Of a DNA stretch of 64,000 nucleotides, positions 20,586-39,962 are shown one piece after another. The stretch spans positions 193,777 through 257,776 of the forward strand of contig CBDBMB010000002.1 in assembly GCA_965207305.1 (NCBI GenBank), written 5' to 3'. Under the pieces are notes generated by a model that saw only the letters and a program-made list of their open reading frames with translations, did no database searches and was not told the DNA's origin. This stretch comes from Dehalococcoidia bacterium. Its GTDB lineage: Bacteria > Chloroflexota > Dehalococcoidia > Lucifugimonadales > JAGWBF01. A program made the translations under genes and the position numbers. Every line of letters starts with the position of its first letter. The stretch's first letter is position 1.

Positions 20586-21233
20586 GTGTAGGGTAGGCCC
20601 CCGGCGGGTTACCCAGATTGCTCAGGGCACTTTTCCGTCGGCCCCCTCCGAACTGGACGTGCGGGTTTCACCGCATCCGGCTCTCCAGTGGCCTATGTCA
20701 GCTTCTGCGGCCTATATTCCGTCTAAACCACCTGACTCCCTCTCGCCATGTACCGGGCTTTCCCCGGCTCGGACTACTATGGAGGCTCCGTGACCATAGG
20801 AGTCTCCCCCCGTAGGCCATCCCGCGTTCCGTTGACGTTGGAGTTTTGGCTCGGCTATTCTCAATTTATGCCCATAGCGATTGAGGGCCATTGCCAGGCA
20901 CTGCCAACAGGAGGAACCGTATGACAGCCCGTTCTACTTTGGGCAGGTTTTTGTCGGGTCGTCGAGTCCTCGTTTTGGCGGCAGTTGTGGTAACTGCGCC
21001 GTTGGTCTCTGTGGCCTACTTTCTGGTGTGGCATTATCTCAGTGAAGATGGTGAAGATGCGGTATGCTGCGAGGTGAAGGTGGAGAAAGCGGTGGATTCA
21101 TCCTCGCTGGATTATCCTTCGCGGTGGCTCACGTTTTTGGTTAGCTCTTGTGTTGGAGCCCCACCTCCACAGGTATCGTCGCTGCGGGAGACCGACGACG
21201 AAGTACAGGTCAGGGTGGTCGTCGTCTCCACAC
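20586..21233 (-). mobile_element. ORF-less (or decayed) group II intron. The 3' two-thirds are confident; the 5' boundary is unresolved (GUGUG at 21233 or GUGCG at 21377)
   Basis: Reading the minus strand:
- Domain III-like CAUAGUAGUCCGAGCCGGGGAAAGCCCGGUACAUGGCGAGAGGG at 20781..20740.
- A 40-nt domain IV hairpin at 20736..20697 with no room for a reverse transcriptase.
- Domain V at 20683..20650.
- A domain VI candidate with a bulged A in GGCCUACCCUAC(AC), ending about 20586-20588.
- DI-like CUAUGGG...GCCGAG at 20878..20850.
There is no RT/maturase ORF on this strand. Confidence 0.7.
20650..20683 (-). ncRNA. Group II intron domain V (catalytic hairpin)
   Basis: The 34 nt are GAGCCGGAU-GCGGU-GAAA-CCCGC-AC-GUCCAGUUC. 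They show the AGC catalytic triad at nt 2-4, a 2-nt AC bulge and a GAAA loop. This is near-identical in layout to the canonical GAGCCGUAU...GAAA...AC GUACGGUUC. Confidence 0.8.
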
Positions 21234-30835: not shown

Positions 30836-31024
30836 AGAAGAGTCTATATTGTGGGAGCTGTGGTGCCATTGCGGAAACCATAACGCGGTTGTCCGCAGCC
30901 CCAGTATAGATGATACATCGGGGAGGGCTGCCAGGCAATTGCAGTAAGGCCGCATAGCGCCGCGGTCGTCCGGTAGGCTATAATGGCTCATATTCACTCA
31001 CGGGATGGAGAGTGTGCAAGCATC

Positions 31025-31672
31025 ATGCTGAGATTCGCCGAGGAAATTATCCTGCTCCTGCTCAACGACGATGACGGGAGGTTCGCCCATGTGCCGAGCT
31101 GGTCCTTCGACTACGCCCTGGCCGGCGGTGTGCTGATGGACCTGGCCCTGGAGAACCGAATCGACACCGACCTGGAAAACCTGATCCTGGTGGACGCCAC
31201 GCCGGTGGGCGACAGCCTGCTCGACCCGACGCTGGCGGAGATAGACGCGGGAGAGAAGCACAACGCCCGCTACTGGGTGGAGCGGACGGCGAACCGGGCC
31301 CAGGAGATCCGCGAGCAAGCACTCGCCCGGCTGGTGGCCCAAGGCATACTGGAATGCCGGGACGACCGTTTCCTGTGGGTGTTCCGGTCCAGGCGCTATC
31401 CTGCCATACAGGGGGAGGTGGAGCGCGAGGTGAAGCTGCGCATCATGGGGGTGCTGTTCAGCGACGACATCCCGGACCCTCGTGACGTGGTCATCATCTG
31501 CCTTGCCGACGCGTGCGGCATCTTCAACGGGCTGCTGTCCAGGCAGGAGCGGGACAGGGCCGCCCCTCGCATAGAGCAGGTGCGCAGGCTGGACCTGATC
31601 GGTCAGGCGATGTCCGCGGCGATCCGGGACATCGAGCTGTCGGTGGCAGCCTCGGTACAACCGCACATGTAG
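31025..31672 (+). CDS. GPP34/GOLPH3-like family protein
   Basis: LRFAEEIILLLLNDDDGRF........DYALAGGVLMDLAL..RI resembles the bacterial GPP34 family as I recall it. Start at ATG 31025. Confidence 0.6.
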   Translation: MLRFAEEIILLLLNDDDGRFAHVPSWSFDYALAGGVLMDLALENRIDTDLENLILVDATPVGDSLLDPTLAEIDAGEKHNARYWVERTANRAQEIREQALARLVAQGILECRDDRFLWVFRSRRYPAIQGEVEREVKLRIMGVLFSDDIPDPRDVVIICLADACGIFNGLLSRQERDRAAPRIEQVRRLDLIGQAMSAAIRDIELSVAASVQPHM

Positions 31673-31868: not shown

Positions 31869-33068
31869 TTGCTGAGTCTTCGTGGGGTCTTTGGTTGGAA
31901 GGGGATCCTCGTGGTCCTGTGCGTGGCCCTCATGGCGCTCACCTCCCGGCCTTACCACGAGGTCGGTGGACAAGAGCCACCGCCGGTGGTGAGCCTGGTG
32001 AGCGTAGAGCCGTCTCCGGTGAGGGAAGGCGGCCGGCTGAGAATCGTCGTAGACATCGACCCACCCCGCCCATCGGGCGCCACCGAGAATATCAGTGGTG
32101 GGGTCATAGTATACGACTCGTCGCAGGGCCCATTCGCGGACGCGCTCATCGCCTTCGTGTTTCGCGCCGGTCACGAGACCCGGAGCATGGGCTATACGGT
32201 GGACGACGACGGGGTGGCCACGACGAGCCGGACCATTCGAATTGAGGTCAATCCCGTCTTCGACGGCTACCGGGTAGGCGGGGGACCGAAGACCATCTCC
32301 GTGTTGGACCAGGGCTCCACCGATCCAGGTCCCGTTCCAGATCCGGACCCCGATCCTACCCCGACCCCAACACCCACCCCCACACCTACGGCGACGCCGA
32401 CGCCCACGCCGACCCCGACTCCCACTGAGACGCCCACGCCGGGGCCGACTCTCACTCCAACCCCCAGGCCAACGGCGACTCCCACGCCAAGGCCGACGTC
32501 GACTCCCACGCCCACGCCGACGCCAACTCAGACGCCCACACCAACCCCGCCGCCTACGCCAACACCGACCCCTACGCCGGCACCAACCCCCACACCGCGT
32601 CCGACGCCAACCCCGACCCCGACGCCGACGCCCACGCCCACGCCGACCCCGACGCCAACCCCTACGCCTACGCCGACTCCGACACCCACCCCCACACCGA
32701 CGCCAAGGCCCGCAGCCACGCCGACGCCAACCCCCACGCCGATACCGACGCCGACGCCCACGCCGGCTCCAACTCAGACGCCGGCGCCCATACCGATACC
32801 CACACCTACTATTGTTCCAACGGCCACTCCCGCGCCCACCATCGAGGCGGCGGCGTTACCTGACGCGGGAACGCCGGGGACAACCCCTCGACGCGAGCTG
32901 GAGCGGGCGGAGATCCCGGTCATCGGAGACGCCATACCCCGCATCCGCAACACCCTGGGCGGGGCCGCGTCCACTCCACGAAGACGCACCACGCTGATCG
33001 TCATCCAGGGTGTCACCAGCGCCTTTGCGCTCAGCGTCTTCAGCTACCTGATAGTGCGGCGCCGCTGA
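31869..33068 (+). CDS. Tail-anchored extracytoplasmic protein with an approximately 170-residue Pro-Thr repeat linker
   Basis: An N-terminal signal/anchor is followed by a globular domain of about 130 aa, then (PT)n with PRPT/PAPT variants. The end is a C-terminal TM helix [21 protein letters not shown] plus RRR. TTG start with AGGAGAA upstream. Confidence 0.7.
32337..32840 (+). repeat. Degenerate hexanucleotide tandem repeat (CCNACN)n encoding the Pro-Thr tract
   Basis: Read directly: runs of ccgacgcc/acccccac units across about 500 nt. Confidence 0.9.
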
Positions 33069-35191: not shown

Positions 35192-36256
35192 TCAGTCCGA
35201 GATCGGGACAGTGGCGGCCCGCGTGGTGGACCAGGTGGGGAGCCACGCCGAGTGCCTCCCGTCGCCGCCCGCCACGACTATGAGTATGTTCAGGGGGGAG
35301 GACACGGGCGGGACCATGAAGCCGTCGTCGTGCTCGTTGACCCACGTGGGCCAGGTGCGGCTGGACCAGTAACCCCGACCCCGGAGGCGGCCGACGGGCA
35401 TCCGGGCGTTCTCCATCACGTAGGCCTTGACGTCGTCCTTGCCGAACCCGTCCTCGTGCATCTCCTGGGCGTGCTCGGGCCCGATGACCAGGAGCATGTG
35501 GGTCTCGCGGCCGATGACGTAGTGGCCCATGTTGCCGGGGCTGACCAGCGAGCTGCAGATGGTGTCGAGGACGTCCCGGCCCGACGTGACGGTCATGTCG
35601 CTGATCTGGTGGAAGCCAGTGACGCCCACGACGGTGACGGCGCTGGTCCCCGCGGGGCTGCCCCGCTCCACGTGCAGGGGCTCCCAGGGGCTGCGGCCCT
35701 CGTTCTCGGCGATGCACATGGTGTACTTGCCGGGGTGACCCAGGGTCGACTTGTCCGTCACTCCAGGTATGGCGCCGCCTATGTTGCGCATGACGAGGCG
35801 GAGGGCCCTGCCTATGGTGGCGTTGGCCCGGTAGCCGTGGCCGAAGACCCCGGTGTCGGCGTTGACCTGCAGCCGGGCGGCAGCCGGGCCGTTGACGATC
35901 ACCAGCGGGGCTGCCCCTCCGGTGGTGGACTGGATGCCGCCAACGTTGAACCCCTCGGTGCAGACACCCTGCACTGCTGCCAGGACCACCGGGAAGTAGC
36001 TGGGGTCGCACCCCGCCATGACGGCGTTGATGGCGACCTTCTCGACGGTGGCTGTGCCGTCGCCGGGAGGGAAGCGCCCCAGGACCTCCGACGGGTCTCG
36101 CTCGCAGCCTCGGAGCATCTCGACGACACGGTCCTCGGAGGGGGGCACGATGGGCAGGCCGTCGGTCCAGCCGCGCTGGTAGTACAGGTCGTTTATGGCT
36201 TCCGGGGAGGCCGATACCTGGAGCCGCCGCGACCTCAGCTGCGGGTTGGATGGCAT
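35192..36256 (-). CDS. Conserved-looking protein of unknown function (354 aa), translationally coupled to the UGSC selenoprotein gene
   Basis: The ATG at 36256 overlaps the upstream TGA by 1 nt (TGATG). Motifs seen are YYQRGWTDGLPIVPP, VAINAVMAGC, GGIQSTTGGAAPLVIVNGP and GHPGKYTMCIAE. I cannot assign a family. Confidence 0.7.
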   Translation of the reverse strand: MPSNPQLRSRRLQVSASPEAINDLYYQRGWTDGLPIVPPSEDRVVEMLRGCERDPSEVLGRFPPGDGTATVEKVAINAVMAGCDPSYFPVVLAAVQGVCTEGFNVGGIQSTTGGAAPLVIVNGPAAARLQVNADTGVFGHGYRANATIGRALRLVMRNIGGAIPGVTDKSTLGHPGKYTMCIAENEGRSPWEPLHVERGSPAGTSAVTVVGVTGFHQISDMTVTSGRDVLDTICSSLVSPGNMGHYVIGRETHMLLVIGPEHAQEMHEDGFGKDDVKAYVMENARMPVGRLRGRGYWSSRTWPTWVNEHDDGFMVPPVSSPLNILIVVAGGDGRHSAWLPTWSTTRAATVPISD

Positions 36257-36804
36257 CAGGATGAGGTCCCTCCGGTGAGGGACTGGACGATGTCGGGCAG
36301 GGCCCCCAGGGCCATCTCCGCGATGTCGTCGGGCTTCTTGCTGGCTATGGGGTGGCCAATCACTACCACGGGATGGGCCGGCATCCCCAGGGTCTCACCC
36401 CTGAGCCGGGCCAGGCGGGTGAAGGCGTTGGTGATCACCGTCACGGCGGGAACGCCCCTCTTCTCGGTCTCTATTCCGTCGTGGAGACCCCACGACGTGC
36501 AGGACCCTCAATCGGCCACCGCGTGGATCACCGCGTCGCACGGCGCTGCGACCTGGTCGATGAGGTCGGGCGGCGCCGGGGTATTGGCGTTGGCCTTGCG
36601 GCGGTACACGACCTGGGACACGCCGTACCGGTCTCTCAGGAGGGCTTCCATGTTTTCGAGGAACACGTCGGAGTTGTGCTTGGTGTTGTCCACCAGCCCG
36701 ATGGTGGTCCCCTGAAGCGAGGCCAGCCGAGCTGCCAGGGCGTGCTCCTCTGGCACGTCCTCGGCTGATGGGTCCAACAGGGTCACGGTTTCGCTCGCCG
36801 TCAT
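36256..36804 (-). CDS. UGSC-family selenoprotein (182 aa, Sec at residue 99 encoded by TGA 36508..36510)
   Basis: Track ORFs 36508..36804 and 36256..36444 are in the same frame, joined by TGA plus 21 sense codons. Read through, the product is ...DAVIHAVAD-U-GSCTSWGLHDGIETEKRGVPAVTVITNAF... A SECIS-like hairpin follows the TGA. AAGGAGG precedes the ATG at 36804. Confidence 0.8.
36478..36496 (-). promoter_or_regulatory. Bacterial SECIS-like hairpin GUCGUGG-GGUCU-CCACGAC
   Basis: A perfect 7-bp stem begins 11 nt after the UGA. The apical loop GGUC starts at nt 22 counted from the U of UGA. As I recall, this matches the loop sequence and spacing of the E. coli fdhF SECIS. A lower helix GGUC/GACC is possible. 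Confidence 0.7.
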
Positions 36805-36854
36805 TACCGGGCCTCCTTGGAGTGGGGAGTCCGACCGCAGCGGCGGTTGGGCCG

Positions 36855-36883
36855 ATTATAGCGTCTTGGACGGGCGCGGGCAA
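36855..36883 (-). promoter_or_regulatory. Candidate internal promoter for the UGSC gene pair: TTGCCC-17 bp-TATAAT
   Basis: On the minus strand TTGCCC is at 36883..36878 and TATAAT at 36860..36855. It lies in the only sizeable gap (95 nt) of the operon. Confidence 0.45.
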
Positions 36884-36899
36884 AGCCCGGGGGCAGGCC

Positions 36900-37850
36900 T
36901 TACTCCTCCAGGGCCCGCCGCTTCTCGCCGTCCCTGGCCCGGCAGGCGGCGGACCTGCGCAGCACGTCCTTGGCCCACTCGTCCACGGGCACGTCGATCA
37001 TCCGGCCGGCGAAGGGCACCGCAGCAGTGCCTGCCGCGACGGCCTGGGCGAACACCTCTCTAACCTGGGTATAGTACTCCACCAGCTCGGGGGCCGGCGT
37101 CATGGCTGTGTTGACCAGCTCCACCCACGAGGCGTCGCGGCACACGACGCCCTTGAATCCCATGTTCCTCCCGTCCGTCGCCATCTGGAAGACATCGTCC
37201 CTGCCGGGGTCCGTCGCCGCCAGGTCCAGGGGGCGGGCGATGCCCACCGGCTGGACTCCGGCGTGGGTGGCCTCCATGATCAGCCGGCCCAACGCGAACT
37301 CCAAGGGGTCGTGGACGGTCGAGGGCCAAACGCCTATGTCGGCGCAGAAGTCCGTCTCTGCCAGACCGACCTGGGTCACCCTCGGGTCCGCGCCGACGAT
37401 CTCCCGGACGTTCCACACGCCCAGCGCCGACCCCAGGAGCGCTATGATCTCCAGGGAGCCTTCCCTGATCCCTCGGAGTCTCTCCATCTCCAGCAGGAGC
37501 TTGGCGGCTGCCGCTACGTCCTGGGCAGTCCCGACCTTGGGCAGCACGATGCCCGAGACGCCCTCCCATATGCCCGCCTCCAGGTCCGCGTGGAGGAAGG
37601 GTGGGTTCACACGCAGGAACACCTCCGAGGCTCCCGCGGCGGCCCTGGGAACGGCCTCGCGAACGGCGGCTCGGGCCTCGGCCTTCCGGGAATCGGGGAC
37701 GCCGTCCTCCAGGTCCAGTGTCACGGCGTCGGGGTGACCTTCCCAGGCGCCCTTGGGCGATTCCAGAGACGCCAGGGCCTCTCCGTCGGTCAGGGAGACG
37801 ACCAGGTTGGAGCGGCGGACGAAGTCCAGGGTGTGTTCCGGGCGTGGCAT
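36900..37850 (-). CDS. HpcH/HpaI aldolase / citrate-lyase beta-subunit (CitE)-like acyl-CoA lyase, paralog 1
   Basis: AVTLDLEDGVPDSRKAEAR carries the DLED motif. Also seen are IIALLGSALGV.N..EI, GLAETDFCADIG and GRMIDVP. The C-terminal tail is AACRARDGEKRRA. Confidence 0.8.
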   Translation of the reverse strand: MPRPEHTLDFVRRSNLVVSLTDGEALASLESPKGAWEGHPDAVTLDLEDGVPDSRKAEARAAVREAVPRAAAGASEVFLRVNPPFLHADLEAGIWEGVSGIVLPKVGTAQDVAAAAKLLLEMERLRGIREGSLEIIALLGSALGVWNVREIVGADPRVTQVGLAETDFCADIGVWPSTVHDPLEFALGRLIMEATHAGVQPVGIARPLDLAATDPGRDDVFQMATDGRNMGFKGVVCRDASWVELVNTAMTPAPELVEYYTQVREVFAQAVAAGTAAVPFAGRMIDVPVDEWAKDVLRRSAACRARDGEKRRALEE

Positions 37851-38803
37851 CAGGCGGACTCCCCGCGCTCTTCCACGGCCCTGGTGCGCGAGACTGCCTC
37901 AGCCTTCTCCCGGTCCCGCTCGGCGCAGGCCTCGGCCCACTCCAGGAGCTCCCGGGCCTTGCGAGCCTCGTACTTGTCGACCACCCTCCCGTTTACCTCT
38001 TCCCAGGTCTTGCCCTGGGCCACCAGCTGCCGGTAGGCCTCCAGCACGCCGCTGGCATCCTCCACCTCGTCGGGAGGCGGGGTCAACCCGCGTATCTGGG
38101 GCTCCACCACGTTGGGATGGAGGCCGCTGCCGTGGCGGAGGCCGCACTTTCTGGCGGTATCTGCCTCCTGGAAAGCGCGGTCGGGGTCGCTGACGCTGCC
38201 GGTGGTGTTGGCGACGAAGGGCATGTTGGTCGGCTCCAGGCCCAGGACCCGGGCGGCCAGCTCCAGCTCCCCCTTGCTGTACACGAACTGGTCGAACCCC
38301 ACGAACATCTCGATGCCCAGGTCTCGGGACATGTCGTAGCCTGTCCCTCCGCCCAGGTCTACGATGCGGGCGCTGGCGGCGGCCATCTCGTACCCGTTGA
38401 CCACGCCCGTCGCTGTCTCGATGTTGGCCCCTATCTGCACGGTGCCGGGCCTGATGCCTCGCTCTCTCTCCAGGCGGGTAATGATCCGGTCCAGCTTGCG
38501 GATCTCGTCGGCCGTTTCGGCTTTGGGATAGTTGACACGGGCCAGGCCCGGCCAGACGATGGCCTCCAGGTCCGCTTGGACGTAGTCGTGGTTGATTCGG
38601 GTAAACACCTCGGCCCCGCCCTTGGAGACCTTGCCGATGGCCTCCCTCACCAGGGTCCTGGCGTGGGGCTTTCTCCACTCGGGGACCGAGTCTTCCAGGT
38701 CCAGGTTTATGTAGTCGCAGCCCCTGGTCCAGGCCCGGTCCACGAACCGCGGGGTGTTCACCGGCATGGTCAATCCGGACCGGCGGACGGCTCTACTGGT
38801 CAT
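37850..38803 (-). CDS. HpcH/CitE-like acyl-CoA lyase, paralog 2
   Basis: Motifs seen are YINLDLEDSVPEWRKPHAR, IGANIETATGVVN and GRVVD. The tail is EACAERDREKAEA. Its ATG (38803) overlaps the upstream stop as ATGA, and its own stop overlaps the paralog 1 ATG. Confidence 0.8.
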   Translation of the reverse strand: MTSRAVRRSGLTMPVNTPRFVDRAWTRGCDYINLDLEDSVPEWRKPHARTLVREAIGKVSKGGAEVFTRINHDYVQADLEAIVWPGLARVNYPKAETADEIRKLDRIITRLERERGIRPGTVQIGANIETATGVVNGYEMAAASARIVDLGGGTGYDMSRDLGIEMFVGFDQFVYSKGELELAARVLGLEPTNMPFVANTTGSVSDPDRAFQEADTARKCGLRHGSGLHPNVVEPQIRGLTPPPDEVEDASGVLEAYRQLVAQGKTWEEVNGRVVDKYEARKARELLEWAEACAERDREKAEAVSRTRAVEERGESA

Positions 38804-39774
38804 GGGGCTCCGCTCTCCTCCGCGTCCTCCCTGGCCAGCTCTACGGCCCGGGCCTTGGCGTCGTCCCTGGCCGCACAGGCCCGGGCTCGGGCGGTCAGCT
38901 CCCGGGCGGCCCTCGCCGTGGCCGGGTCCACCGTCCGCGTGCCCAGGTGGGCCAGGGCCTTGCCCTCGTGCTGGGCCTGCTCCCAGGCCCGTATCACTGC
39001 CTCGGCCTGGGCGACGTCCTCCGGGTCCGGGGCGTACCCCAGGTTGAGCGCCTCCACCTGGTCGCTCCCCAGGCATATGGAGCCCCGGAAGCCGATGGCC
39101 CTTCCCCGCCGGGCGGCCTCCAGGGTATCCTCCGGACTCGCGGCGAGTCCCCGGGCGGGGGCCCTCCACCAGGCTCCCAGCGGCACGACGCCTGCTGCGT
39201 TGGCAGCGGCGATGAGGCGCTGCATCAGGTAGGGCATCATGTGGAGCTCTCCAGAGGGCTCCGGACGGAGGTCCATCTCCAGGTCGGCGCGGCCCAGGGT
39301 CAAGCCCCATACCCTCTGGCTGGCCCTGGCGATCTCCATGGCGTTGAAGTTGCCCACGGCCGTCTCCAGCGCGGGCACCATCTGGAGGGCGCCGGGCAAC
39401 AACCCCAGCTCCTCTTCCATCTGCGACAGGAGGCCGTCAGCCTCCGCGGCTTCATCCGCCGACTCCAGCCGGAGGACGACGCCGGCCAGCCCGCGGCATA
39501 CCGAGGCACTGAGGTCGGCGTAGAGCAGCTCCCGGTCGGCGAGAAGGAACACATCCGCGCCGCCCTTGGAGACCGACTCCACGGCCTGCCTGGCCCCCTC
39601 CCTGGCGGCCGGCTTGTCCACTTCGGCCACCATCTCCGCCAGGTCGAGCAAGACCACGTCCGCCCCCCAGGTCCAGGCGTCCTCTATGGCGGCCCTGTCG
39701 GAAAGGGGCACCAGGAGCCAGGAGCGGCGGACGGACTTGCCGTCGGCGACGTCGCTGGATGGCGGGGACGTCAT
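38800..39774 (-). CDS. HpcH/CitE-like protein, paralog 3, with a degenerate metal/active-site motif (DLAE instead of DLED)
   Basis: Motifs seen are RRSWLLVPLSD...ADVVLLDLAEMVAEVDKPAAR, MVPALETAVGNFN and LGRADLEMDL. The tail is RACAARDDAKARA. Start set at ATG 39774, which overlaps the upstream TGA as ATGA. Confidence 0.75.
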   Translation of the reverse strand: MTSPPSSDVADGKSVRRSWLLVPLSDRAAIEDAWTWGADVVLLDLAEMVAEVDKPAAREGARQAVESVSKGGADVFLLADRELLYADLSASVCRGLAGVVLRLESADEAAEADGLLSQMEEELGLLPGALQMVPALETAVGNFNAMEIARASQRVWGLTLGRADLEMDLRPEPSGELHMMPYLMQRLIAAANAAGVVPLGAWWRAPARGLAASPEDTLEAARRGRAIGFRGSICLGSDQVEALNLGYAPDPEDVAQAEAVIRAWEQAQHEGKALAHLGTRTVDPATARAARELTARARACAARDDAKARAVELAREDAEESGAP

Positions 39775-39962
39775 CCGCACCGGAGGCATCGGACCTCGCT
39801 GAAGACGCTGTCCTGGATGTCGCGGTCGGACATAATGTAGTCCATCACCACGCGCACGGCCTTGTTCTCGTCGGCTATGCCGTACTTCTCGGCGGCCGAG
39901 CGCAGGAAATTCATCTGGTCCACCTCCAGGGTCAGCTCATAGGCCTGTTTCTCCTTTGGCAT
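39771..39962 (-). CDS. Small protein (63 aa), ribbon-helix-helix-like pattern, C-terminal RCLRCG
   Basis: The sequence is MPKEKQAYELTLEVDQMNFLRSAAEKYGIADENKAVRVVMDYIMSDRDIQDSVFSEVRCLRCG. GGGAGG lies 7 nt upstream of the ATG at 39962. It is the first gene of the operon. The fold assignment is a guess. Confidence 0.55.
   Translation of the reverse strand: MPKEKQAYELTLEVDQMNFLRSAAEKYGIADENKAVRVVMDYIMSDRDIQDSVFSEVRCLRCG

What the first reader, a model, noticed from the sequence alone, without database searches (positions are those of the whole stretch)
35192..36804. UGSC-motif selenoprotein with an fdhF-like SECIS, coupled to an unassignable 354-aa partner
**In-frame TGA.** Two minus-strand ORFs (36508..36804 and 36256..36444) share one frame. 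They are separated only by TGA (36508..36510) and 21 sense codons. Read-through gives a 182-aa protein, ...APCDAVIHAVAD-U-GSCTSWGLHDGIETEKRGVPAVTVITNAF...

**SECIS.** Eleven nt after the UGA there is a perfect 7-bp hairpin with apical loop GGUCU (36478..36496). The loop begins at nt 22 from the U of UGA. As I recall, this matches the loop sequence and spacing of the E. coli fdhF SECIS.

**Family.** Proteins with a UGSC/CGSC motif were predicted as selenoproteins from marine metagenomes, and the name is used as a family label. To my knowledge no function is assigned.

**Partner and expression.** The gene's stop overlaps (TGATG) the start of a 354-aa protein I cannot place in any family (GWTDGLPIVPP, AINAVMAGC, GGIQSTTGGAAP motifs). 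The pair has its own candidate promoter (TTGCCC-17-TATAAT) and a strong SD.

**Interpretation.** A Sec-dependent two-gene module of unknown chemistry sits inside a CitE-like acyl-CoA lyase operon. This is the best candidate in the window for an undescribed system.
Basis: partly seen in the sequence, partly recalled or inferred. Interest (0 to 1): 0.8.

Follow-up and report, generated by a model that had tools for sequence, protein, structure and literature searches.

The report
UGSC selenoprotein with conserved unknown partner
This is a genuine selenocysteine-encoding gene of the known but functionally uncharacterised UGSC family, joined to a widespread partner gene of no described family; the two probably form a thioredoxin-recycled reductase distantly related to the glycine and proline reductases of anaerobes.

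Summary
A minus-strand gene (36256..36804) carries one in-frame TGA (36508..36510). Both flanks have gene-like codon composition, and an 8-bp hairpin with a GGUCU loop follows the TGA. The read-through product passes the curated cut-offs of NCBIfam NF041046 and Pfam PF24696 (UGSC family).

In 80 related loci, 83 of 87 UGSC copies keep TGA at this site and 4 have TGC. The hairpin covaries. Its loop G23-U24 is present in 74/81 Sec forms and 0/5 Cys forms.

The 354-aa neighbour matches no Pfam or NCBIfam model but is a very large family (5,696 clusters at 50% identity). It lies within 400 bp of a UGSC gene, on the same strand, in 79 of 96 copies. The two are also fused in either order.

UGSC folds as a flavodoxin-like domain, not a thioredoxin fold. 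It matches selenoprotein B models (GrdB/GrdF/GrdH/PrdB) weakly but repeatedly. Relatives carry trxB or trxB-trxA in the operon, or are fused to TrxR-like or ferredoxin:thioredoxin-reductase-like domains.

The most likely function is a two-subunit, thioredoxin-recycled Sec reductase of unknown substrate.

The CitE-like neighbourhood is lineage-specific and not part of the system. The UGSC family is already known, and a 2008 paper noted a fusion of UGSC to an unnamed domain. Function remains unknown. The Sec machinery of this genome could not be checked.

The parts
36855..36883 (-). Sigma-70-like promoter candidate, TTGCCC-17-TATAAT, in the 95-nt gap after the last CitE-like gene
   Evidence: 10 of 12 matches; 1 site found against 0.2 expected. 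This is a consensus match only; function was not shown.
36812..36818 (-). Shine-Dalgarno AAGGAGG, 7 nt upstream of the ATG
   Evidence: Read directly.
36256..36804 (-). UGSC-family selenoprotein gene. It encodes 182 aa, with Sec at residue 99 and Cys at residue 102 (U-G-S-C).
   Evidence: frame and translation. NF041046, 150.7 bits against a cut-off of 125. PF24696, 186.5 bits. GC3 is 0.87 on both sides of the TGA.
36508..36510 (-). UGA selenocysteine codon (codon 99)
   Evidence: the aligned codon is TGA in 83 of 87 homologs and TGC in 4. The tblastn alignments run through it.
36477..36497 (-). SECIS-type hairpin. It has an 8-bp stem and a 5-nt loop, GGUCU, with G23 and U24 counted from the U of UGA. 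A weaker lower stem extends it to 36466..36506.
   Evidence: -21.2 kcal/mol, z = -2.85; 7 of 8 pairs change on both sides; pair 21-27 is GC in 51 sequences and CG in 25; 0 of 500 shuffles reach the covariation score. G23-U24 in 74/81 Sec forms and 0/5 Cys forms. No Rfam model matches it.
36254..36258 (-). TGATG overlap between the UGSC stop and the partner start (translational coupling)
35192..36256 (-). Partner gene, 354 aa, of a family with no Pfam or NCBIfam model. Conserved motifs are GWTDGLPxxPP, AINAVMAGC, TTTGG, FGxGxRANATIGRALR, KYTxCxAENE, GPEH and AGGDGRHS.
   Evidence: no family match; conserved columns; 7,977 homologs; 5,696 clusters at 50% identity; 79 of 96 copies lie next to UGSC; model pLDDT 85.5, pTM 0.87.
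36900..39789 (-). Context only, not part of the system: three tandem HpcH/HpaI (CitE-like) paralogs at 38800..39789, 37850..38803 and 36900..37850
   Evidence: The association with the pair is seen only in near-identical contigs.

Best explanation
The two genes encode a selenocysteine-dependent, two-subunit oxidoreductase.

**Shown**
- Gene 1 is a UGSC-family selenoprotein. Its UGA-99 is decoded as Sec with the help of a SECIS hairpin placed 10 nt downstream.
- Gene 2 is translationally coupled to gene 1. It is UGSC's evolutionarily obligate partner, either adjacent or fused.

**Inferred**
- The small subunit is a flavodoxin-like domain related to the Sec-bearing region of 'selenoprotein B' of the Stickland reductases (GrdB/GrdF/GrdH/PrdB). 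It carries a U-x-x-C centre at the start of a helix.
- The large subunit, rich in invariant Arg, Thr, Asn, Glu, His and Cys residues, binds a small carboxylate or amino-acid-like substrate.
- The selenol attacks or reduces the bound substrate and becomes a selenenyl-sulfide with Cys-102.
- That bond is re-reduced by a thioredoxin-type system: NADPH through TrxB and TrxA, or a ferredoxin:thioredoxin-reductase-like module.

The closest analogy is D-proline reductase PrdA/PrdB, which also works without protein A or protein C, but here the substrate-binding subunit is unrelated. The substrate is unknown, and neighbourhoods vary from genome to genome. That pattern suggests a substrate-diversified catabolic enzyme family.
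For: **Selenocysteine coding**
- TGA is conserved in 83 of 87 homologs and TGC occurs in 4.
- The motif at residues 99-102 is U/C-G-x-C in 82 of 87 copies.
- SECIS covariation is seen, and the loop GU is tied to TGA forms.
- The protein passes the curated family cut-offs.

**Partnership**
- 74 of 80 partner-selected loci carry UGSC.
- 79 of 96 partner copies have UGSC within 400 bp on the same strand, upstream in 52 and downstream in 27.
- In-frame fusions occur in both orders: P0149, P0134, P0123, P0053 and L096.
- A look-up starting from a distant UGSC fragment again found the partner.

**Relation to selenoprotein B**
- Of 34 UGSC members, 17 hit GrdB TIGR01917 (best E 4.9e-6), 11 GrdF, 9 TIGR01918, 8 GrdH and 6 PrdB.
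- For the window protein the match covers residues 85-156, around the Sec, against GrdB profile positions 333-398.

**Thioredoxin-type recycling**
- Arthrobacter sp. ERGS1:01 has the operon trxB-trxA-partner-UGSC.
- Variovorax SRS16 has trxB-TTT-SDR-partner-UGSC.
- TrxR-like genes lie within 10 kb in L048, L018, L080 and L072, and directly upstream of UGSC in L048 and L018.
- P0211 is a partner fused to Pyr_redox_2. P0198 is a UGSC-partner protein fused to FeThRed_B.

**Fold**
- The UGSC model has pLDDT 87.8 and five parallel strands. The Sec loop sits between strand 3 and helix 3.
Against: - No biochemical data exist for any member.
- The selenoprotein B similarity lies far below the curated cut-offs (13.5 bits against 602 for the window protein). 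It was not confirmed residue by residue.
- The partner shows no similarity to GrdE or PrdA (Pfam and NCBIfam scans). The substrate-activation chemistry is therefore unknown.
- No trxB or trxA lies near the pair in this window.
- Some fused relatives lack Sec or Cys at the site (Vibrio europaeus, 'ADMGTSVM'), so not all members can be redox enzymes.
- The Sec machinery was not seen in the 64 kb.
Confidence: 0.6

Rival explanations
1. The pair is a non-redox, two-subunit hydro-lyase or isomerase built like class I fumarate or tartrate hydratases (an alpha-like large subunit plus a small subunit). Sec/Cys would serve as a metal or cluster ligand or as an acid-base group, not as a redox centre.
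For: - The only Foldseek matches at or below E 0.001 for the partner model are class I Fe-S fumarate hydratases (6uqn_B at E 6.5e-5, probability 0.98; M. jannaschii alpha subunit 7xky_A at 8.2e-5).
- The architecture parallels TtdA/TtdB and FumA: two genes, or one fused protein of about 550 aa.
- Fused forms without Sec or Cys sit next to aconitase X plus DUF126 in Vibrio and Sporomusa.
- Neighbours often act on carboxylic acids or acyl-CoAs: family III CoA-transferases, enoyl-CoA hydratases, PrpD and TTT transporters.
Against: - TM-scores are only 0.23-0.27 and rmsd is 16-17 A.
- hhalign of the partner profile against E. coli TtdA, and of the UGSC profile against TtdB, gives probability 0.1.
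- There is no Fumerase Pfam hit even at E <= 10 in 43 members.
- Only two conserved Cys are present (C83, C181), and C181 is lost in some members. A three-Cys cluster site is therefore not evident.
- Foldseek finds only flavodoxin-like proteins for UGSC (lumazine synthase, flavodoxin, sugar isomerases) and no hydratase subunit.
- This reading does not explain the trxB/trxA and FTR links.
Confidence: 0.15
2. One reading: the pair is an integral, Sec-dependent step of the CitE-like (malyl- or citramalyl-CoA lyase type) pathway encoded immediately upstream.
For: - Three HpcH/HpaI genes lie directly upstream on the same strand.
- A family III CoA-transferase is also in the window.
- The order CitE x3 - UGSC - partner is kept in five contigs (L003, L081-L084), some of which may come from the same organism.
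Against: - CitE-like genes occur in 1 of 80 species-level loci, and that one is the 97%-identical relative.
- The pair has its own promoter-like site and a 95-nt gap.
- In other genomes the pair sits with quite different genes.
Confidence: 0.1
3. UGSC is a free-standing general thiol-disulfide oxidoreductase or antioxidant of the thioredoxin type, as the literature guessed, and the neighbour is functionally unrelated.
For: It has a UxxC motif. Zhang and Gladyshev suggested a Trx-like fold.
Against: - The model is a five-stranded parallel alpha/beta fold. Its hits are lumazine synthase, RpiB and flavodoxin, not thioredoxin.
- Gene adjacency and fusion with the partner are near-obligate.
Confidence: 0.05
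4. The TGA is a real stop, so the locus holds either two small ORFs or a pseudogene.
For: Public gene callers split it into ORFs of 98 aa and 60 aa. TGA is the ordinary stop codon of this genome; both genes of the pair end in TGA.
Against: - TGA is conserved at the same codon in 83 of 87 homologs across phyla, and Cys replaces it in 4.
- GC3 is 0.87 on both sides.
- The SECIS covaries.
- The 21 codons between the two called ORFs encode the most conserved motif of the family.
Confidence: 0.02

Closest known systems
UGSC family (seleno)protein (NCBIfam NF041046, Pfam PF24696; 'UGSC-containing protein' of Zhang and Gladyshev)
   Same: The window protein matches full-length above both curated cut-offs. 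It has the U-G-S-C motif, Sec predominates over Cys, and a SECIS follows the UGA.
   Different: Nothing differs at family level; this is one more member. New here are the fold assignment (flavodoxin-like, not Trx-like), the link to selenoprotein B, the measured partner association and the thioredoxin-system links.
D-proline reductase PrdA/PrdB, and protein B of glycine, sarcosine and betaine reductases (GrdB/E, GrdF/G, GrdH/I)
   Same: - The small Sec subunit has a UxxC motif (the GOS table lists PrdB as UxxC).
- There is weak but repeated sequence similarity around the Sec.
- The layout is two subunits.
- Thioredoxin-system genes lie in the operon in some relatives, as in grd operons (my own knowledge).
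   Different: - The partner is not a PF09338 (GrdE/PrdA) protein.
- None of the neighbouring genes scanned against Pfam is GrdA- or GrdC/D-like; these were not searched for directly.
- UGSC is shorter, at 182 aa.
- Hosts include aerobes and haloarchaea.
- Scores are far below the family cut-offs.
E. coli fdhF-type bacterial SECIS
   Same: The hairpin starts 10-11 nt after the UGA. The apical loop contains G23 and U24 at the same distance from the UGA. That G23 and U24 are the SelB contacts in fdhF is from my own knowledge.
   Different: The window's stem is perfect, with no bulged U17. The family's usual loop is AGUNU, and GGUCU occurs in this subgroup. No Rfam model detects it. SelB binding was not tested.
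Class I Fe-S fumarate hydratase / L-tartrate dehydratase (FumA, TtdAB, MjFH alpha-beta)
   Same: It is the best Foldseek match for the partner. Both occur as two genes or as one fused protein.
   Different: TM-scores are low, there is no profile similarity, there is no three-Cys cluster motif, and the small subunit has a different fold.

Membership tests
UGSC family (NF041046 / PF24696) | Score above the curated whole-protein cut-off | tested here: met
   NF041046: 150.7 bits against 125. PF24696: 186.5 bits against 25. Both used the U-to-C read-through sequence.
UGSC family (NF041046 / PF24696) | U/C-G-S-C motif at the conserved position | tested here: met
   The window has AVAD-U-GSC-TSW. 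Among homologs the motif is UGSC in 69, UGAC in 6, UGGC in 4 and CGSC in 3 of 87.
Bacterial selenoprotein gene | In-frame UGA with Cys or Sec aligned in homologs, and conservation downstream | tested here: met
   83 TGA and 4 TGC of 87; alignments span residues 1 to about 180. GC3 is 0.87 on both sides.
Bacterial selenoprotein gene | SECIS hairpin just 3' of the UGA, with structural conservation | tested here: met
   Covariation is seen in 7 of 8 pairs, and 0 of 500 shuffles reach the score. Loop G23-U24 occurs in 74/81 Sec forms and 0/5 Cys forms. z = -2.85.
Bacterial selenoprotein gene | selA, selB, selD and tRNA-Sec present in the genome | not testable with these tools
   None is in the 64-kb window or the fetched loci.
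fdhF-type SECIS | Bulged U17 in the upper stem | tested here: not met
   The window's stem is a perfect 8 bp. That this feature is needed for E. coli SelB is from my own knowledge, and it is not universal.
Stickland-type selenoprotein B reductases (Grd/Prd) | The Sec subunit belongs to the GrdB/GrdF/GrdH/PrdB family | tested here: inconclusive
   17 of 34 members hit TIGR01917 (best E 4.9e-6), and 6 to 11 hit GrdF, GrdH, PrdB or TIGR01918. All lie far below the curated cut-offs. This indicates remote homology, not membership.
Stickland-type selenoprotein B reductases (Grd/Prd) | The partner is a GrdE/PrdA-type (PF09338) pyruvoyl proprotein | tested here: not met
   The partner and 42 homologs give no Pfam or NCBIfam hit even at E <= 10.
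Stickland-type selenoprotein B reductases (Grd/Prd) | Thioredoxin system encoded with the reductase | tested here: inconclusive
   Absent near the pair in the window. Present in Arthrobacter, Variovorax, L048, L018, L080 and L072, and as domain fusions in P0211 and P0198.
Class I Fe-S hydro-lyase (fumarate/tartrate) | Fumerase-type domains and three Cys cluster ligands | tested here: not met
   No Pfam hit. hhalign probability is 0.1. Only C83 and C181 are conserved. Foldseek gives E 6.5e-5 but TM 0.27.
Thioredoxin-fold oxidoreductase | Thioredoxin fold around the UxxC motif | tested here: not met
   The AlphaFold model (pLDDT 87.8) has five parallel beta-alpha units. Its best hits are lumazine synthase, RpiB and flavodoxin.
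CitE-like acyl-CoA lyase operon | Co-conservation of the pair with CitE-like genes | tested here: not met
   A CitE-like hit occurs in 1 of 80 loci, the 97%-identical relative.

The most novel reading that the evidence does not exclude
UGSC plus its partner would define a large, uncharacterised class of thioredoxin-dependent selenoenzymes. They would be evolutionary cousins of the Stickland reductases with a completely different substrate-binding subunit, and would carry out reductive cleavage or reduction of small organic acids or amines in aerobic and marine heterotrophs (SAR202/Dehalococcoidia, Proteobacteria, haloarchaea). This would give a function to one of the most abundant selenoprotein families in ocean metagenomes.
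Probability: 0.4. Interest if true: 0.75.

Novelty: new member of a known kind. Interest (0 to 1): 0.55.

Why it matters
**An abundant family with no function.** UGSC was among the three to five most abundant selenoprotein families in the Global Ocean Sampling data, with 255 Sec forms against 21 Cys forms. A 2026 review still groups it with prokaryotic selenoproteins whose biological functions remain largely uncharacterised.

**What this analysis adds.**
- UGSC almost never occurs alone. It comes with, or fused to, a very large partner family that has no Pfam or NCBIfam model.
- UGSC is related to selenoprotein B of the Stickland reductases and does not have a thioredoxin fold.
- Dedicated trxB/trxA genes, or TrxR- or FTR-like domains, accompany it in several lineages.

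**Why the question is now testable.** Cultured organisms carry Cys-type versions: Arthrobacter sp. ERGS1:01, Variovorax sp. SRS16, Natrinema zhouii and probably Paracoccus versutus, where only the partner match was seen. These can be expressed without Sec machinery and assayed with their own thioredoxin systems.

**Annotation.** The gene is split into two ORFs in the one public genome record examined and in the gene calls of five further assemblies.

Tried and rejected
- **Rfam.** Scans at the gathering threshold (whole window) and at E <= 10 (36200..36900) found no SECIS family.
- **PDB sequence searches.** Profiles of both proteins gave nothing meaningful.
- **Family scans of the partner.** Pfam and NCBIfam scans of 43 partner homologs at E <= 10 gave only scattered noise.
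- **Fumarate-hydratase lead.** It came from Foldseek. hhalign against E. coli TtdA and TtdB did not support it. It is kept only as a rival.
- **The 2008 'Unknown_1' domain.** The figure is an image, and the sequence supplement is truncated and lacked partner motifs. Identity with this partner is therefore unverified.
- **Search for GrdB/PrdB sequences.** A third homolog search with a 34-sequence UGSC profile returned only UGSC fragments among its top 120 hits, mostly N-terminal pieces of about 100 aa cut at the Sec codon.
- **Sec machinery.** tblastn with E. coli SelA, SelB and SelD against the window and all loci gave only generic GTPase hits.
- **Other selenoprotein genes in the window.** A screen by codon-position GC found none.
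- **Stem pairing as a Sec/Cys control.** It barely differs (6.46 against 6.4 of 8 pairs, with only 5 Cys forms). Only the loop GU and the inner pairs discriminate.
Full report
**1. The observation**

On the minus strand, ORFs 36508..36804 (98 aa, ATG start) and 36256..36444 (62 aa) share one frame. Translating 36256..36804 gives a 182-residue product with a single internal stop at codon 99. That stop sits inside ...APCDAVIHAVAD*GSCTSWGLHDGIETEKRGVPAVTVITNAF....

The sequence after the TGA reads GGGUCCUGCA-CGUCGUGG-GGUCU-CCACGACG. This is a perfect 8-bp stem at 36477..36497. The loop begins at nt 22 counted from the U of UGA. The 45 nt from the UGA fold at -21.2 kcal/mol, with z = -2.85, and 1 of 200 shuffles folds as well.

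The UGSC stop overlaps the ATG of a 354-aa ORF at 35192..36256 (TGATG). A TTGCCC-17-TATAAT site lies at 36883..36855; it is the only such site in the scanned 2.2 kb, against 0.2 expected. AAGGAGG lies 7 nt before the ATG.

Third-position GC is 0.87 on each side of the TGA, and neighbouring genes have 0.87-0.92. A screen of all in-frame TGAs in the window found no other with this coding signature and with G+C at the first and second codon positions like that of the neighbouring genes. TGA is otherwise the normal stop codon here, since both genes of the pair end in TGA. Any recoding is therefore site-specific.

**2. A UGSC-family selenoprotein gene with a SECIS**

With U replaced by C, the product scores 150.7 bits on NCBIfam NF041046 'UGSC family (seleno)protein' (cut-off 125). 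It scores 186.5 bits on Pfam PF24696.

I fetched 80 loci from species-representative genomes, using the partner protein as bait. Of these, 74 contain UGSC homologs, 87 copies in all, and the tblastn alignments run straight through the site. The aligned codon is TGA in 83 copies and TGC in 4. The motif is UGSC in 69, UGAC in 6, UGGC in 4, CGSC in 3 and other in 5.

I aligned 80 distinct 45-nt segments starting at the TGA. The 8-bp helix is paired in 81% of cells, against 73% after shuffling (0 of 500 shuffles reach it). Seven of its eight pairs show changes on both sides. The closing pair is G-C in 51 sequences and C-G in 25. The covariation score of 0.228 exceeds every shuffle and every slid register.

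The G-C to C-G switch matches a Trp-to-Cys codon change on the 5' side, compensated by a synonymous GUC-to-GUG change on the 3' side (read). That compensation is an RNA-level signal, not a protein-level one.

Loop positions 23 and 24 are G and U in 74 of 81 Sec-type sequences and in 0 of 5 Cys-type sequences. Keeping T-ending codons (AGT, GGT) at this point is unusual in genomes with GC3 near 0.9. From my own knowledge, G23 and U24 are the SelB contact bases of the E. coli fdhF SECIS. The bulged U17 of that element is absent here.

No Rfam family detects the element. The window holds no tRNA-Sec, selA, selB or selD, and the rest of the genome is out of reach. Public gene calls split the gene into ORFs of 98 aa and 60 aa.

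**3. The partner**

The 354-aa protein has no Pfam or NCBIfam match. Scanning 43 family members at E <= 10 gave no consistent weak match either. A profile search found no sequence relative in the PDB.

The family is nevertheless very large. One search scored 7,977 homologs at E <= 0.001, the cap of that search; all those listed are unnamed or 'hypothetical'. An exhaustive search found 5,696 clusters at 50% identity.

Members occur in Dehalococcoidia, Betaproteobacteria, Methylomirabilota, Binatia, Actinomycetota, Bacillota, haloarchaea and Nitrosocosmicus. L003, from a Dehalococcoidia MAG, is 97% identical to the window's partner protein, which places the window in that class.

Many polar residues are invariant or nearly so: D32, E72, K73, N77, N104, T111, T112, N145, R150, R157, N158, K169, T171, C181, E184, N185, E261, H262 and H335. 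C83 is nearly invariant. This is the pattern expected of an enzyme active site.

The AlphaFold model is confident (pLDDT 85.5, pTM 0.87). Its only Foldseek matches at or below E 0.001 are class I Fe-S fumarate hydratases, at E 6.5e-5 to 9.8e-5 and probability 0.90-0.98. TM-scores are only 0.23-0.27. hhalign of the family profile against E. coli TtdA gives nothing. I treat this resemblance as inconclusive.

**4. The pair is one functional unit**

- Of 96 partner copies in the 80 loci, 79 have a UGSC gene within 400 bp on the same strand. UGSC is upstream in 52 and downstream in 27.
- Most of the remaining copies lie at contig ends or are separated from UGSC by one inserted gene.
- The two proteins occur fused in one frame in both orders:
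  - UGSC(Cys)-partner: P0149, P0134.
  - Partner-UGSC: P0123.
  - Sec-type fusions, which gene callers truncate: P0053, P0058, P0044 and P0091.
  - L096:4001-5734, a Sec-type fusion that reads ...GMGC-U-GSCTPAV...EWSDGLPVVPPT....
- L096 was reached from a distant UGSC fragment, so the association also holds when starting from UGSC.
- Zhang and Gladyshev (2008) reported a 'UGSC/Unknown_1' fusion. The figure is not machine-readable, so identity with this partner is likely but unverified.

By contrast, CitE-like genes accompany the pair only in the near-identical contigs (L003, L081-L084) and in none of the other 79 loci. Across loci the recurrent neighbours are:

| Neighbour | Loci |
|---|---|
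| SDRs | 20 |
| Family III CoA-transferases | 17 |
| Luciferase-like oxidoreductases | 17 |
| NHL-repeat proteins | 14 |
| Enoyl-CoA hydratases | 10 |
| FMN alpha-hydroxy-acid dehydrogenases | 10 |
| TTT-type binding proteins | 8 |
| PrpD/MmgE | 7 |

A DUF6282 gene lies between or beside the pair in six loci. The neighbourhood is therefore catabolic and variable, which suggests that substrates differ between subfamilies.

**5. How it probably works**

The UGSC model was built on a 47%-identical Cys homolog and has pLDDT 87.8. It is a five-stranded parallel alpha/beta domain. The Sec lies in the loop between strand 3 and helix 3. Its structural neighbours are lumazine synthase, RpiB and flavodoxins. 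It does not have the thioredoxin fold guessed in the literature.

At sequence level the window protein matches the GrdB model weakly over residues 85-156, around the Sec (E 0.025). Across 34 diverse UGSC proteins the signal is consistent: 17 match GrdB (best 4.9e-6), 11 GrdF, 9 TIGR01918, 8 GrdH and 6 PrdB. No other family recurs. UGSC is therefore a remote relative of the Sec-bearing region of selenoprotein B of the glycine, sarcosine, betaine and D-proline reductases.

Independent evidence points to a dithiol/disulfide electron supply:
- Arthrobacter sp. ERGS1:01 has the operon trxB-trxA-partner-UGSC.
- Variovorax sp. SRS16 has trxB in the operon.
- TrxR-like genes lie within 10 kb in L048, L018, L080 and L072, and directly upstream of UGSC in two of them.
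- By my own rough estimate, a single-copy gene in a genome of about 4 Mb would fall within 10 kb of a given gene in about 0.4 of 80 loci, against 4 observed.
- One partner is fused to a pyridine-nucleotide disulfide reductase (P0211).
- One UGSC-partner protein is fused to a ferredoxin:thioredoxin reductase catalytic domain (P0198).

I therefore propose the following cycle, which is inferred and not shown. The partner binds the substrate. Sec-99 attacks or reduces it and ends in a selenenyl-sulfide with Cys-102. A thioredoxin-type system then restores the selenol and thiol.

This is closest in logic to PrdA/PrdB. The partner, however, is unrelated to PrdA or GrdE, and none of the neighbouring genes scanned against Pfam is GrdA- or GrdC/D-like, though these were not searched for directly.

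Caveats:
- No trxB lies near the pair in this window.
- Some fused relatives have lost the Sec/Cys ('ADMGTSVM' in Vibrio europaeus) and sit beside aconitase X genes. Part of the family is therefore probably not redox-active.
- The fumarate-hydratase-like resemblance keeps a hydro-lyase reading alive.

**6. Novelty and verdict**

The selenoprotein is a new member of a known, curated family. It has been described since 2007-2008 as a selenoprotein of unknown function, and it is still listed without a function in 2022 and 2026 reviews. No functional study turned up.

Its interpretation is right about Sec, the SECIS, the family and the coupling to the partner. It is wrong to tie the module to the CitE-like operon, and somewhat too strong in calling it undescribed.

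What is new is at the level of the family:
- a near-obligate, unmodelled partner;
- a flavodoxin-like fold related to selenoprotein B;
- thioredoxin-system linkage;
- cultured hosts with Cys forms that are suitable for experiments.

My confidence that this is a real Sec gene with a functional partner is about 0.9. My confidence in the reductase mechanism is about 0.45. I score interest as moderate to high, because this makes an old open question (what does the abundant UGSC selenoprotein do?) directly testable.

Noticed in passing
window 36900..39789 (-): Three tandem HpcH/HpaI (CitE-like) paralogs of 329, 317 and 316 aa have overlapping stop and start codons, which suggests a hetero-oligomeric lyase. 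A 63-aa ORF precedes them in the public gene calls. The arrangement is conserved only in near-identical contigs.
   Followed up: partly
window 20588..20685 (-): A group II intron catalytic domain (Rfam RF00029) scores 52.3 bits, above the gathering score. A mobile intron probably lies about 15 kb from the finding.
   Followed up: no
window 31869..33068 (+): A 399-aa ORF contains a Pro/Thr repeat of about 200 residues (TPTPTP...) followed by a C-terminal hydrophobic segment. It is probably a cell-surface protein.
   Followed up: no
window 30983..31672 (+): A bacterial homolog of the GPP34 (Golgi phosphoprotein 3) family, PF05719, at E 5e-45.
   Followed up: no
L081-L086 (public records of the same locus): Public gene calls split the UGSC gene into a 98-aa ORF and a 60-aa ORF, both hitting PF24696. 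The selenoprotein is therefore not annotated as such in the source MAG.
   Followed up: yes
L096:4001-5734; also L048:11992-12510, L070:13541-13972, L072:16316-16804: A divergent UGSC subfamily has the motif G-(C/G/A)-U-G-(S/A)-C-(T/S)-P-A-V and a longer N-terminus (ICELWD...FRGDE). In L096 it is fused in frame to the partner as one Sec-containing polypeptide of 577 residues, directly after a TctC-type binding-protein gene.
   Followed up: partly
L094:5371-7056 (Vibrio europaeus pVEu); L092:5329-7053 (Sporomusa termitida pSPTER): Fused UGSC-partner proteins of 561 and 574 aa lie next to aconitase X and DUF126 genes. The Vibrio protein has Met-Gly-Thr-Ser in place of U/C-G-S-C. This may be a non-redox branch of the family.
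   Followed up: partly
L048:5803-6681, L018:1061-1921, L014:3013-3864, L036, L080, L028; L093:7072-7905: A DUF6282 (PF19799) gene of about 285 aa lies between or just after UGSC and the partner in several distant lineages, including haloarchaea. It may be a third component. In L048 and L018 the order is trxB-like, UGSC, DUF6282, partner.
   Followed up: partly
P0273-P0277 (haloarchaeal and related Cys-type UGSC); L091:7069-7884: Cys-type UGSC proteins often carry C-terminal extensions with an extra conserved Cys. Haloarchaeal proteins end in ...SLYCPI/L, and the Arthrobacter protein has an extension of about 90 aa containing ACSDC. These could be extra redox-relay sites.
   Followed up: no
L091:3740-4528 and L093:2904-3371: Phosphosulfolactate synthase (ComA-like) genes lie near the pair in both Arthrobacter and Natrinema. 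This is a possible hint at sulfonate or sulfolactate-type substrates.
   Followed up: no
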